Positions 3,227-36,300 of a stretch of 64,000 nt of DNA are shown here, piece after piece (within the stretch, counting starts at the first letter, position 1; each line of letters starts with the position of its first letter). A model generated the notes under the pieces. It searched no databases and was not told where the DNA came from. It was given only the letters and a program-made list of their open reading frames with translations. Origin of the DNA: Leucoraja ocellata. Taxonomy: Eukaryota. Location of the stretch: contig JAWMAR010000039.1 in the NCBI GenBank assembly GCA_036785375.1, positions 1,426,001 to 1,490,000 of the forward strand, given 5' to 3'. The translations under genes were made by a program, and so were the position numbers.

Positions 3227-3674
3227 TGGTGAGCAATGAGCTAGCATCCCGGCCCACCTTTGTAGTTAATGGTTCCATGTACGATACTTGGCATACCTGT
3301 GGGACTCAGGATATTAGAAACTTTGTTTACACACAGGAGATCGCTCTGTGACATTCAGTCTGCACAGAGGGGATATCGCCACCTATTACAGTCATTTCTT
3401 TCCATTCTCAGTTCTCCACAACTGACTCAGTGGCTTGCACCATGATGTGTAGAGTGGTGTTTCTCCGGCGTAACTGTTGCTGGAGTGTTCACGAGGCAGT
3501 CTCTAACTGTGCACATCACATTGTGATGACAGCATTTGTTTACATGCCTTGCCTTGCACTGTCAAAATATTGACATGACAACACAATCTGTTTAAAACCA
3601 CCACATGAATATTCAGCAAAAGCCTGACCAAGAGTTAGGACTCTGAGCAACCGCACATATACATTCACATACTT

Positions 3675-4160
3675 GCACTGCCACAGAGCTTGGTCGACAT
3701 GACCCACCTTGTCCATGTCGACCAAGTTAGTACACTGGGCTAGTCCCATTTGCCTGCATTTGGCCCATGTCCCTCCAAACCTTTCCGATCCAGATATCTT
3801 TCAAAGGTATTTTTATTGTCAGGTGTACCAGTGACATTCGATTTACCAAATGTCTTTTAAAGTCATGAATATATCTGCTTCCATCGTTGCCTCTGGCTGC
3901 TCATTCCAGATACGGCTCTGAGCGGAAAAAGTTGCCCGTGAGGTGACTCTTATATCTTTCACCTTAAGCTTTTTGTTTCAGAATCCTCTTCTCCTGGGAA
4001 AAAAGACTGTGAGCAATCACTTTATCCATGCCACTCGTGATCTTGTACCCCTCAGCCTTCTATATCCCAAAGATAAAAGTCCCAGCCGACCCAACCTCTC
4101 CCCGTAACTCAGGCCCGCCGTGCTGGTGAATCTCCCCTGCACCCTTTCCAACTGCCCTGT
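3675..4160 (-). mobile_element. CR1-type LINE 3' fragment (older subfamily)
   Basis: ORF 4017-4205(-) contains LERVQGRFT...GLSYGERLGRLGLLSLGYRRLRG, a CR1 ORF2 C-terminal motif. Confidence 0.8.
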
Positions 4161-31640: not shown

Positions 31641-33003
31641 TAGTAAGCTGTGAGGTCAGATGAAGAGACCTCCCCCCCCCCACCACTCCACACTCCCTCC
31701 CCTCCCCACAATATAGGAGTGTGCTTCGGAGTCATAGTGTTTTTTTTTTAAAGATCTACGTCCTTCAAATCCAAAAAGAAACCAAGAAGATGGTAGTGAA
31801 AGATTTAGGCTGGCATGCATTTCGACCCATTCACCTGGCCCAATGAACAGAGTCCCTGTGGGTGGGGAGAGTAGTGGAGAGCTGGAGTTGAGCATAATAA
31901 TGACAGCAGGAGCAGCGGCCTGGTATGGCACAGCACGGCACCCAGAGGCACGGGAACAATTAATCAGCGTATGTGTTTCCGGAATCCCAAATCCCTACAA
32001 AGGAAAATAAACGTTTGCCATTCATTATTTTATATTCTATAATAGAATCAGAAGTGGAAATAGCACAATTGTTCCTGGATAGGAGGCCGAGGGAAGGATT
32101 GTGCATGTAGGTTATGGATGCTCCTTGCCCAGCCTTAACATACAAAGAACAGGACAGCACAGGAACTGGCCCTTCGGCCCACGATATCTGTGCTGACGTG
32201 ATGCCAAGTTAAACTAATCTCATCTGCTTGTGCCGTGGGGAGTAATGCTGTACATGTGCACCAGCAGACAACCTTCATGCTCCTGTTGCACAAGCTATTG
32301 ATGCTCAGGACTCATGTTCCAGGGGACCTGTGCAGTAGCACTGTCGAAGCAGAACTCACCCTCGTGCCATGACTGCCTCTTAGATCATTAGAATTCTCCT
32401 AACACCCCACACACTTGTAGCTTTAGAATATAATCATGTTTGGCACAGAACATCATCTGTGCTAATCATTCCCTATACTCTGCTCAACTCTCATTCTGAA
32501 ATGAGAAAGGACAAAGGCCAGAACACATCCTGTCACTTTTCATTAGGTGGTAACAGAGGGGAATTAAACACTATTGTCTTTACAAAGTGTCAATGCAAGC
32601 CTAATGCTCCACAGTTTAAATAATGATGCATCTCATGAAAGAGGAAAGGCCAAGCTGAGGATAGATGTTGTGAGCTGCTTAGAGAGCCAGGCGATGGAAG
32701 CTGTCAGTGTTGATGGTTTTAACTTTTGTGTTTCACAATGTATTACGTTTCAAAGCCAGATTTCATTATCATAATGTTAACACTTTTTGTTTTTGTTTTT
32801 ACATTTCATCTTTTTACGGTTGTTTAAAATTAGAAGCCTTTCCCCAGGCTGCCTCAAAATGTTCTTTACTTAATTTTTTAGAGCTATAACGTGAAACCAG
32901 GCCCTTTGGCCCACCGAGTCCATGCTGGCCATCAATCACCTGTTCACACTAGTTCTGCACACGGGCAATTTACAGAGGGCCAATTAACCTGCAAACTCGC
33001 ACG

Positions 33004-33257
33004 ACACGGGAAACCTCACCCGGACCGGACACGGAAAGGATTGACAGATTGATAGCTCTAACTCGATTCTGTGGGTGGTGGTGCATGGCCGTTCTTAGTT
33101 GGTGGAGCGATTTGTCTGGTTAATTCTGATAACGAACGAGACTCCCACATGCTAAATAGTTACGCGACTCCTGAGCGGTCAGCGTCCAACTTCTTAGAGG
33201 GACAAGTGACGTATAGCCACACGAGATTGAACAATAACAGGTCTGTGATGCCCTTAG
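33004..33257 (+). pseudogene. Retroposed 18S rRNA fragment (254 nt, 3' major domain)
   Basis: acacgggaaacctcacccgg...ggtggtgcatggccgttcttagttggtggagcgatttgtctggttaatt...aataacaggtctgtgatgcccttag is eukaryotic 18S sequence; CpG-type decay (ttctgataac, ggtcagcgt); no adjacent rDNA. Confidence 0.95.
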
Positions 33258-33363
33258 GCAGGAACGGGGTATTGATTGTGGATGATCAGCCATGATCACA
33301 TTGAATGGCGGTGCTGGCTTCAAGGGCCGAATGGCCTACTCCTGCACCTATTGTCTATTGTCT
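33256..33363 (+). mobile_element. CR1 3'UTR and tail fused to the 18S fragment
   Basis: aggcaggaacggggtattgattgtggatgatcagccatgatcacattgaatggcggtgctggc...ggccgaatggcctactcctgcacctattgtctattgtc, matching 6003-6120. Confidence 0.9.
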
Positions 33364-36300
33364 TTGGATGTGGGAGGATCCCGGAGCACCTGGAGGAAAC
33401 CCACGCAGTCACAAGGAGAACCTGCAAACTCCACACAGACAGCAACCAAGGTCAGGTTTGGACTCGGGTCTCTGGTGCTGTGAGGCTGTAGTTCTGCGCC
33501 GCTGTGCCGACTGGAATCCAGCCAAGGACTGGAGATGATGTGGAGGTTGGCTGATGTTTGGTCAGTGGTGTTGCAAGAGTCCATTTACTCTCGATGGCAG
33601 AGATCTGTCCTCTTCGGAAGCGAGCTACACTTTCTGGTTGCAATGCTCTTGTGCTGTTGCACATTAATGTAGTGACCGAGATCCTGCTGGAGCATCTTAG
33701 CTGGAGTCTCCCCCGTAAACTTTGACCTCGGAAATTGGCAGACACCAGCTGTCATACAAGGACAGAGAAGGGAAGAGAAATTGAAGGGAAGAGCAACTGA
33801 GGTGAATTGGAGTCATTCGGTTACATGGCGAGAAACAGAATGGAACAGAAAGATTAAGAGAGAGAGAACAAAGAGATACATAGGAAAAGTGAAAAATGGA
33901 AATTGAAATTAAGAGAATGTCTGTGATTGCATCAAATAGATTATATATCTCAATATTGAATAGATACTCACATTGTAAATACCAGCCCTATTATTGAGCA
34001 ACAATTTAAGTGGGCATATGGCGAGCAAAGGTGTTAAACTCTTGAAAGCCAGTTGAGGGCACGTTGCTGCTTTAATAAGGTGGACGTGCATCATCCAGCA
34101 TTGTGTGGTTTTTACATTTTACATGGCATCTCTTCCTCTCCACAGGTCATTACATGTTTGATTCATTTACCATGATAGGCACCATTAAACCCATCGGTTT
34201 ACCTTTGCATATATCACCAGCATGAATGGCAAATTAAGTTTCTCATTGAAATTCTGGCACTCATTTTGCTGAAAGGTATTCGGTCACTGAAATGCCCACC
34301 CAGTGTTGCTCAGTGAGCCTTGAAGAGTATCTTGTCATCAGCCGTTTGCCATCCAATCTGCTTCTCATGTTCCTTTCTGGTTTGAAAACTATCCCATTAA
34401 AAATAAGTTTCAGCACAATGAGTGCAAAAACTGCATTGAAAAACTCTCCGCGCCAGACATGTGATGATATCTGCTCTGCATGAGCCTCTGACGTTGATGG
34501 TGGGTGTCTCAGTTCAGCTCCGTTTAGTTTATTATAACGTGTAGCGAAGTGCAAGGCTTCATGTGGTTCCCTGGCACACTGTCTATACCCAGTCGAGTGC
34601 CTGTACTGTGCTGCCACTCCAGAAGGTTGCAATACACACTAATTCAGCCTCGCTAGGGCTGCTTTGCTTTGGAGGTGTCTCCATCACCAGAGTACAAGTG
34701 ATAAAATGAACCTTTCAGGAAGGGAGAAGAGACAAGGGTTAGGATGTTACTGTGAGATGGGACCTTTGTGGAATGATTGCCTTCAAGTGATGATGCACAG
34801 AACACAAAGTGCTGGAGCAACTCAGTGGGTCAGGCAGCAACTCTGGAGGACATGGGGAGGTGGCGTTTCAGGTCGGGACTCTTGTTTGAGAGGGTGATAC
34901 AAATCATCAGTAGTTGCAAGTCTTACGCGGGTTCCATAAACACGGAGCTGAGCTGACCCGAGGCGTAAACTGGACTACTGACCTCCAAACCTTCGTATTG
35001 CAGAGTTTGGAGGAGGGCAGGGGATGGACTGTGAATTGAAGATATCTGAGGTGACATCAATAGTCTGTTCACCTACGTAAATCAACACCACAACTTTTGA
35101 CATTTTAATCCTTTTTTTCACATTCTTGTATGGTTTGATAACTTTCCCAATATCTGTAAACTCATTGTGCTGCAGTCTGTAAAATCACACCACATCTATT
35201 TTCTAAGCTCTTCCATGTACCTTGGTTGATGTGTTCCACCATTGGCATTCAGCTGTCAAACTCCTGGTTTTCCGTAACTTCTCGTTCACTCCTTTCTCCA
35301 TTTAGATCCTTAAACTGTGCCTTTCGGACAGAGCGTTTGATATCTGTCATAATACCTCTTGTTTCTCGGTGTCAGGGTGCTCTTGTTATGTTTTCGTTTC
35401 CTAACGATGCTGTATGAACAAAGATTGGTGTTGTGGATAGACGTGGGAATGACTGTGGAAAAGTGACAGCCCTCACACTGGGGCAGAGATACAACACACT
35501 GAGTAACACCTCGGTGTTCAACTAACACCATTTCCTCTCCGCTGAGCAGGAACTCTGAGGAAAGAGACAAAAGGGAGCAGAATCTCAAAAGCTGTCCCAG
35601 TCTGCGTTGTGTGCCTCGTTTGTATTACCTGGCGTGAATGGAGTGCCCTGCCTCTGCGATAACACGCATTTTTTCCCGTCTTAAAAACAATGAAGTATTT
35701 TCTATGGCCTGAACTTGTAGCATGGCTATAATATGTCAGTCAGTCCGATCTGATAATCCCTTGTAAAGTTCCAGCTATTCATTTTATCTGTGACTCCTTT
35801 AAAGGAATAAAAGTGATATTTCATTCTTGACATGAAAAATTCATTGAATGTGGCAGTGTAGATCCATCTTTACTTAAAAGCCCTGATGGCCAGACATCAG
35901 GAGGAGCTCAGACCTTAATATCTAATTAAACATCACAAGCGGCAGATTAGGATGATTCACGCCTGACATTTATCACGACATCGTTGTTTCGTTGCTGTTG
36001 CATGTTTCAGCGGATCACTGAAGGGTCAGAGTCTCATTTACACGACAGCATTTGTAAATCTTAGGTAATGTCACCTTTGGTTATCAATGAAACTCCAGTG
36101 AAATTAAATTCTTTTTTTCACGTAGACAGATACACTGTACAATTTTGAACTCCGGGACATTGTTGTGCTGGAATTTTAAATCATCCCATGGGCTAAAACC
36201 TTGTCCAGCGTCGAACCTCCATTAATGCAGTGATCCCTCACTGCTCCCTGTCACAACTGCGTAGCTGAACCGTGGAATAGGTTTAAACTCGTACCTTCTG

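What the first reader, a model, noticed from the sequence alone, without database searches (positions are those of the whole stretch)
33004..33363. 18S rRNA-CR1 chimeric retrocopy (possible 18S-headed SINE)
Seen: 254 nt of 18S is fused in the same orientation, through a 2-nt AG microhomology (33256-33257), to the last ~105 nt of a CR1 LINE including its stem-loop and (CTATTGT)n tail. It is inserted cleanly in an HE1 SINE without a clear TSD. Established: LINE RT template switching makes ncRNA-LINE chimeras such as U6-L1, and rRNA-derived SINE heads exist. Inference: CR1 RT switched onto ribosomal RNA, plausibly from the ribosome translating it. If the same junction is multi-copy, this is a new rRNA-derived SINE family.
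Basis: partly seen in the sequence, partly recalled or inferred. Interest (0 to 1): 0.7.

Follow-up and report, generated by a model that had tools for sequence, protein, structure and literature searches.

The report
Ribosomal RNA piece captured by retrotransposon
A jumping gene copied a 254-letter piece of the cell's ribosomal RNA into this ray-like fish's genome once; it is not a new repeat family, but it is one of many such accidents here, whose ends seem to record where mature ribosomal RNA is chemically modified and cut.

Summary
Host 18S nt 1212-1465 is fused in sense, through a shared AG, to the last 108 nt of a young CR1-type LINE, inside a V-SINE with no target loss and a 0-1 nt duplication. 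It is not a SINE. The exact junction occurs twice genome-wide, and the second copy shares about 20 kb of flank at 98% (the other haplotype). It is a single chimeric retrocopy, the 18S/CR1 counterpart of human 28S/LINE-1 chimeras.

The wider pattern is more interesting. Of 44 dispersed rRNA pieces sampled, 17 abut a retroelement in sense at their 3' end, against 3 in the mirror position. Partners are CR1, V-SINE, RTE-like and Penelope-like elements. Five of 18 pieces start 0-3 nt from reverse-transcription-blocking rRNA modifications (controls 3-5 of 65; p 0.01-0.035), including this one. Six of 15 end at 18S 1383-1386, three of them exactly at a predicted hammerhead cut site. The templates were probably mature rRNA fragments. 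Read-level and cross-species tests remain open. The scan noted a similar 18S-SINE chimera in another genome.

The parts
32878..33003 (-). 3' half of the host tRNA-headed V-SINE-like element (HE1-like; name recalled, not tested)
   Evidence: similar to other SINE copies in the window and in fetched loci; rejoins with the other half to the SINE majority sequence
33004..33257 (+). 18S rRNA piece, host 18S nt 1212-1465; 5' end 3 nt downstream of U1209, the only U in the helix-31 loop (site of m1acp3-Psi)
   Evidence: Rfam RF01960 with structure line; 96.1% to host rDNA arrays; numbering; modification site and RT stop from PMC4872110
33256..33257 (+). AG shared by 18S and CR1 at the joint
   Evidence: chance level 16%
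33256..33363 (+). 3' terminal 108 nt of a young CR1-type LINE
   Evidence: 28 other genomic copies share it; the ORF upstream in copy L020 matches RT/endonuclease proteins of rays and skates (about 77-81%) and of birds and turtles (about 45%)
33274..33297 (+). predicted hairpin in the CR1 3' UTR
   Evidence: centroid structure, overall z -0.53: predicted only
33348..33363 (+). (CTATTGT)2CT tail; its last 3-4 nt overlap the target sequence
   Evidence: sequence, SINE majority sequence
33361..33511 (-). 5' half of the host SINE with degenerate A/B-box-like head
   Evidence: the outer end is approximate

Best explanation
A single, now dead, chimeric retrocopy. CR1 protein nicked the SINE and primed reverse transcription on its own RNA, helped by a 3-4 nt match between tail and target (shown as sequence, mechanism inferred). 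After about 105 nt the cDNA continued on an 18S rRNA molecule at nt 1465, most likely by an RT template switch at the shared AG (inferred; prior RNA ligation is the alternative). Synthesis ended 3 nt short of the hypermodified U1209, which blocks reverse transcriptase (inferred), and the end was joined bluntly to the target. It has not multiplied (shown). It is one case of a general process in this genome, in which several kinds of retroelement pick up mature rRNA fragments at their 5' end.
For: One locus on two haplotypes; other CR1 loci also come in 97-99% pairs, so the assembly keeps both haplotypes. Clean empty site. Similar decay of both parts: 18S 6 and 10 differences in 254, tail 2 in 108. 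Sense orientation and size match human 28S/L1 chimeras (n=18, median 269 nt, 83% sense; PMC13174262). Of 44 dispersed rRNA loci, 17 have a retroelement starting in sense within 30 nt of the 3' end versus 3 in the mirror position (p 7e-4; 15 vs 3, p 0.003, without two self-defined library entries). At two sister loci a 12-14 bp duplication encloses 18S piece plus partner (C24, C1143). Dispersed 28S pieces stop at or just before the mature 3' end (3842, 3848, 3851, 3851) and do not enter the spacer, unlike array-derived DNA. 5' ends within 0-3 nt of a blocking modification: 2 of 8 at 18S U1209 and 3 of 10 at 28S U3387, versus 3 (4-nt window) to 5 (8-nt window) of 65 control probe-locus pairs (p 0.010 and 0.035).
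Against: No real TSD encloses this insert, whereas CR1 TSDs peak at 3-5 bp (PMC4245944). No orthologous empty or filled site was examined. The 2-nt overlap is at chance level. The modification signal is modest: the 18S half was noticed after the fact, the 28S half alone gives p 0.03-0.07, and control pairs are not independent. Six of 8 and 7 of 10 pieces read through the sites. Lesions at the site were 2 of 6 for 18S (p 0.09) and 1 of 7 for 28S (expected 1.1). m3U gave mostly mutations rather than stops with one RT in vitro (PMC5066629). Mapping host U3387 to human m3U4530 rests on a recalled offset. 23 of 44 pieces have no library partner at the 3' end (the library had 10 entries).
Confidence: 0.8

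Rival explanations
1. RNA ligation before reverse transcription: a broken 18S fragment (2',3'-cyclic phosphate) was ligated, for example by RtcB, to a broken CR1 RNA (5'-OH), and the fused RNA was then inserted.
For: Sense chimeras can arise by ligation or by switching (PMC13174262 section 17). At three sister loci 18S ending at 1384 is joined exactly at the predicted hammerhead cut of a Penelope-like repeat, an end that would carry a 5'-OH. The overlap at this locus is at chance level.
Against: Here the CR1 part is cut internally, not at a natural RNA end, and no other of 29 sampled 18S pieces ends at 1465. End-to-end jumping by RT explains the hammerhead joints equally well.
Confidence: 0.12
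2. Two steps or DNA capture: a 5'-truncated CR1 inserted, and rDNA or 18S cDNA was patched in at its 5' joint by repair, or the two inserted separately at the same base.
For: No TSD ties the parts together. Zebrafish L2/CR1-type inserts often carry extra 5' nucleotides added during repair (PMC4245944, PMC4760211).
Against: The SINE rejoins without loss. There is a strong 3'-side, sense bias across loci. Pieces end at mature rRNA ends and lack spacers.
Confidence: 0.05
3. Founding or rare member of an 18S-headed SINE family.
For: It has the head-plus-LINE-tail layout with an intact CR1 3' end. rRNA-derived SINEs exist (SINE28, PMC4994717; 5S heads, PMC4494074).
Against: The junction was found at one locus only. 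The other rRNA-CR1 joints differ at both ends. No internal promoter is known for this Pol I RNA (established knowledge; not tested).
Confidence: 0.02
4. Assembly artefact or rRNA-read contamination.
For: No reads were laid on the joints.
Against: Two contigs carry it with different substitutions, and it is 2.4-3.9% diverged from the arrays, which are near-identical to each other.
Confidence: 0.01

Closest known systems
[quoted passage not shown]
   Same: An internal rRNA fragment of about 250-270 nt, in sense, 5' of a truncated LINE, with low and independent copy number; template switch or ligation proposed.
   Different: 18S rather than 28S ('18S' and 'CR1' occur 0 times in that paper's main text). 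The LINE is a stringent-type CR1 with a repeat tail and no TSD. Several other retroelement kinds do the same in this genome.
U6/LINE-1 and other snRNA/LINE chimeric retrocopies (Buzdin 2002, as cited in PMC4494074; RtcB route as drawn in PMC13174262 Fig. 7)
   Same: A non-coding RNA copy fused 5' of a LINE 3' end in one insertion.
   Different: U6 pieces are mostly full length and nuclear; this is an internal slice of a Pol I transcript whose 5' end sits next to a cytoplasmically completed modification.
SINE28 (PMC4994717) and SINEU (PMC4494074)
   Same: A structural-RNA-derived head on a retroposed element.
   Different: Those are described as multi-locus families (37 human loci for SINE28; SINEU argued not to be a sum of independent chimeras). 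This joint is single-locus.
Minimal hammerhead ribozymes of Penelope-like elements (PMC4209133, PMC11167929)
   Same: A sister repeat here carries the CUGAnGA / extra nt / helix II / GAAA / palindromic stem III layout.
   Different: Those papers found low or protein-dependent cleavage in vitro and no RNA-seq reads ending at the cut. Here three genomic 18S joints fall exactly on the predicted cut. This concerns sister loci, not the window element.

Membership tests
SINE family | many copies with the same head-tail joint at unrelated flanks | tested here: not met
   2 exact hits of 5 at up to 3 mismatches, both the same locus
SINE family | 3' tail taken from a partner LINE | tested here: met
SINE family | internal promoter and transcription of the element | not tested
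   no promoter assay; no RNA reads laid
ncRNA/LINE chimeric retrocopy | cellular RNA copy directly 5' of a LINE 3' end, same orientation | tested here: met
ncRNA/LINE chimeric retrocopy | one insertion event (TSD around both parts, or clean empty site) | tested here: inconclusive
   clean empty site but only a 0-1 nt duplication here; 12-14 bp TSDs at two sister loci
ncRNA/LINE chimeric retrocopy | both parts arrive together in phylogeny | not testable with these tools
   no relatives held for this genome; no read lay obtained
CR1-clade LINE (tail) | 3' end belongs to an EN/RT LINE of the CR1 type with a short tandem-repeat tail | tested here: met
   the ORF upstream of the tail in L020 hits PF00078/PF14529/PF03372 proteins of rays, birds and turtles; that these are CR1 is established knowledge; no tree was built
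HE1 V-SINE (host) | sequence identity to HE1 with tRNA head, V-domain and HER1 tail | not testable with these tools
   no repeat library; HE1 is listed as the tRNA-headed V-SINE of sharks and rays (PMC3747384); the layout fits by recall
Penelope-like element with minimal hammerhead (sister loci) | min-HHR core upstream of the cut site | tested here: met
   34 of 76 motif hits carry the core at the right spacing; Rfam hammerhead models did not hit 8 loci
Penelope-like element with minimal hammerhead (sister loci) | link to a Penelope RT/GIY-YIG ORF, and actual self-cleavage | not tested
   no ORF was linked; no assay

The most novel reading that the evidence does not exclude
In cartilaginous fish, germline retroelements of several kinds (CR1 and its SINE, RTE-like, Rex1-like, Penelope-like) routinely pick up mature, fully modified rRNA fragments. 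The genomic copies then act as a fossil record of RNA chemistry: 5' ends mark RT-blocking bases (m1acp3-Psi in 18S, m3U in 28S); a recurrent break at 18S 1383-1386 marks an unrecognised cleavage site; and joints of that break to the exact hammerhead cut of a Penelope-like repeat are in vivo evidence that these minimal ribozymes cleave, possibly followed by RNA ligation.
Probability: 0.4. Interest if true: 0.7.

Novelty: new variant of a known kind. Interest (0 to 1): 0.45.

Why it matters
The locus itself is a harmless one-off and not a new SINE. The set it belongs to suggests three things. First, rRNA capture is not special to mammalian LINE-1 but is shared by stringent-type LINEs, their SINEs and Penelope-like elements, which is the raw step from which rRNA-headed SINEs could arise. 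Second, genome sequence alone may reveal rRNA modification and cleavage sites in a germline. Third, it offers a direct test of an open question: whether Penelope minimal hammerheads cut in vivo.

Tried and rejected
Multi-copy family: rejected. The second full-length hit is the other haplotype, and three 3-mismatch hits held no rRNA.

DNA searches with the 18S piece were swamped by rDNA arrays (38 of the 40 scored places), so 13 short probes were used instead.

Run search: 20 of 24 listed runs hold part of the 1.8-kb stretch, and 8 hold half or more of its 182 words (3 organism labels, 3 studies). None was laid, so this says nothing about the joints, and the small shares are not used.

The probe beside the presumed 28S m1A site gave one usable locus (918-950), which is uninformative; it was counted with the controls. 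Mutation at modified sites in read-through copies was not significant. TSD search gave convincing hits at only 2 loci (C24, both haplotypes, and C1143) among 19 rows (17 loci); the other short matches look like chance. The second 18S-CR1 joint (C22) seemed to share 6 nt, but 11 of 16 other CR1 copies differ at one of those bases, so its overlap is not firm.

No gene context was found: 83 of 86 stop-free frames of 95 aa or more were scanned, with one weak below-threshold Pfam hit; short exons would be missed. No tRNA gene was called in the window.

Rows left out of the 44: haplotype partners and tandem duplicates, rDNA arrays, array-embedded insertions (L077, L119, L132-L135), 28S pieces starting at the R2 site or in R2-bearing rearranged units (L105-L114, L117), and loci without an rRNA alignment (L097, L159). 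One hit (C865:12974) was not fetched.

Paper searches that found no report of 18S-CR1 chimeras or of modification footprints in genomic rRNA copies: (listings only). The library lacks most subscription papers, so absence from print is not shown.

Full report
OBSERVATION. The window holds an 18S rRNA piece at 33004-33257 (Rfam RF01960). It is 96.1% identical to 28 of 28 host array copies examined and corresponds to host 18S nt 1212-1465. It is followed in sense by 108 nt that recur genome-wide as a LINE 3' end with a (CTATTGT)n tail. The ORF upstream of that tail in a longer copy matches RT/endonuclease proteins of rays and skates at about 77-81% and of birds and turtles at about 45%. That identifies a CR1-type LINE and suggests a batoid host (inference; no tree was built). 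The two parts share AG, an overlap that chance gives in 16% of joints. The flanks are two halves of a tRNA-headed SINE on the minus strand. They rejoin to the majority sequence of 33 copies with no loss, a 0-1 nt duplication and a 3-4 nt overlap with the tail. The predicted hairpin is not better than shuffles.

COPY NUMBER. A 121-nt junction query gave two full-length hits among 40 scored of 963 candidates. A 24-nt junction pattern with up to 3 mismatches gave 5 hits: 2 exact and 3 without rRNA context. The second exact hit, on C971, matches the window at 98% over 3.1 kb and over about 20 kb of flank. Other CR1 loci are paired in the same way, so the assembly keeps both haplotypes; a segmental duplicate is not excluded but would not change the reading. 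The two copies differ inside the insert (10 and 6 differences from rDNA, 6 shared). This argues against misassembly and shows an older, decaying insertion. The SINE-family reading fails.

THE WIDER SET. Ten 18S probes and three 28S probes were used to list rRNA matches outside the arrays. After collapsing pairs and leaving out array-embedded and R2-site loci, 44 loci remained, 29 of 18S and 15 of 28S. This is a sample, not a census.

Against a 10-entry repeat library drawn from loci in hand, 17 of 44 have an element starting in sense within 30 nt of the 3' end: 7 V-SINE, 4 Penelope-like, 3 CR1 and 3 RTE-like (the RTE label is recalled). Only 3 of 44 do so in the mirror position; 4 have an antisense hit at the 3' end and 23 have none (p 7e-4, or 0.003 without two self-defined entries). 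By eye, C1 is followed by a Rex1-like RT frame in sense (clade recalled) and C81a by a SINE head. At C24 and C1143 a 12-14 bp duplication encloses 18S piece and partner, which shows co-insertion there. The three rRNA-CR1 joints (window, C22, C220) differ at both ends, so they are independent events. Four 28S pieces end at 3842-3851, the mature 3' end, without spacer sequence, whereas array-derived DNA runs on into the spacer. This points to mature RNA as template.

5' ENDS. [quoted passage not shown] That loop carries m1acp3-Psi, whose acp group is added late in the cytoplasm and stops primer extension one base downstream (PMC4872110, passages). It also causes misincorporation and stalling (bioRxiv 840132, passages). 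Of 8 loci covering the next 20 nt, 2 start at 1211-1212. As a prediction I then probed beside 28S U3387, taken as human m3U4530 by a recalled offset: 3 of 10 loci start at 3387-3390. Together that is 5 of 18, against 3 to 5 of 65 control pairs depending on the window (p 0.010 to 0.035; 28S alone 0.03 to 0.07).

Against this reading: most pieces read through; lesions at the site are 2 of 6 (p 0.09) and 1 of 7 (expected 1.1); m3U gave mainly mutations with one RT (PMC5066629, passages); and the control pairs reuse loci. I rate this step at about 55-60%.

3' ENDS. Of 15 loci covering 18S 1340-1361, 6 end at 1383-1386 (resampling p about 5e-5 with a rough null). Two other pieces begin at 1384 and 1386, as expected for the other side of a cut. 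Three of the six (C8, C245/C1143, C113; first found with 18S probes, then 6 hits = 3 loci) are joined to a very common palindromic repeat. The joint falls exactly where intact copies have the predicted cleavage site of a minimal hammerhead core, within a 1-nt ambiguity. The layout fits Penelope-like min-HHRs (PMC4209133, passages), but Rfam did not call it and no Penelope ORF was linked. Two other 18S joints to this repeat (C553, C47) are not at the cut. Published work found weak or protein-assisted cleavage and no RNA-seq ends at the cut, so these joints would be rare in vivo evidence. They fit RT jumping from a cleaved 5' end, or RNA ligation. The window element does not end at this hot spot; no other of the 29 18S pieces ends at 1465.

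MECHANISM. Shown: structure, orientation, single locus, clean target, similar decay of both parts. Inferred: target-primed reverse transcription from the CR1 tail, a switch onto 18S RNA after about 105 nt, arrest near the modified base, and a blunt 5' join. Not shown: that the rRNA came from the ribosome translating CR1; whether the joint was made by switching or by ligation; that both parts arrived together in phylogeny. No read-level lay was obtained, so spanning reads, an empty allele and expression are untested.

COMPARISON. It works like, and by the features tested belongs with, ncRNA/LINE chimeric retrocopies. The nearest are the 18 human 28S/LINE-1 chimeras of median 269 nt, 83% sense (PMC13174262: abstract, passages and section 17). 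It fails the defining multi-copy test for a SINE such as SINE28 or SINEU (passages). CR1-type TSDs peak at 3-5 bp, and extra 5' nucleotides are common in fish L2 inserts (PMC4245944, PMC4760211, passages). HE1 is the listed V-SINE of sharks and rays (PMC3747384, passages); identity to it is recalled, not tested. No supplements were read, and the locus tables of PMC13174262 might bear on whether human chimeras also start at modified bases. My searches (listings) showed no report of 18S-CR1 chimeras or of modification footprints in genomic rRNA copies, within a library that lacks most subscription papers. An earlier scan note describes an 18S-SINE chimera in another genome (not checked).

VERDICT. 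Real, single-copy, a new variant of a known kind. The locus alone merits about 0.3. The multi-element pattern with end signatures raises the score to 0.45.

Noticed in passing
L071 (G000 C8), L086 (C1143), L084 (C245), L092 and L088 (C113): 18S pieces ending at nt 1384 are fused at the predicted hammerhead cut of a palindromic Penelope-like repeat at three loci. The C8 copy has an inverted 5' duplication and a later insertion of about 600 bp inside the 18S part, with a short duplication.
   Followed up: partly
L150, L151, L152, L153 (C26, C145, C440, C2165): Four very young (97-100%) 18S pieces at unrelated flanks all end at nt 1447-1448; their partners were not identified.
   Followed up: no
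L130, L136, L143, L144, L156, L080, L082: rRNA pieces sit just 5' of V-SINE heads; three end at or within 10 nt of the mature 28S 3' end. These are candidate rRNA-extended SINE heads, each at a single locus.
   Followed up: partly
L131 (C258): 28S nt 3387-3848 with an A-rich tail, 98.5% identical; it resembles the SINE28 layout (3' end of 28S plus poly(A)).
   Followed up: no
L105, L107-L114, L117: Many 28S pieces start at nt 2691-2695, the R2 target site (recalled), behind similar non-rRNA 3' ends, some far from the arrays: probably R2 elements carrying their 28S flank.
   Followed up: no
L077 and L119 (C865): An rDNA unit whose 18S is interrupted by a roughly 900-bp insertion at nt 1206-1212 and by another element near nt 1136-1140.
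   Followed up: no
L133, L134, L135: An element inserted in 28S near nt 3437, with a copy of 28S sequence at its end, in several rDNA contigs.
   Followed up: no
L074 (C195): Near full-length 18S copy (nt 4-1796, 95.5%) without spacers, inside an antisense LINE-like sequence.
   Followed up: no
window 33176 and loci L071, L086, L154: Several older 18S copies share C at nt 1384 where the present arrays have T, suggesting an rDNA change fixed after these insertions.
   Followed up: no
window 904, 11685, 11815, 19604 (minus-strand count), 52388 (minus-strand count): Copies of the hammerhead-core repeat in the window itself.
   Followed up: partly
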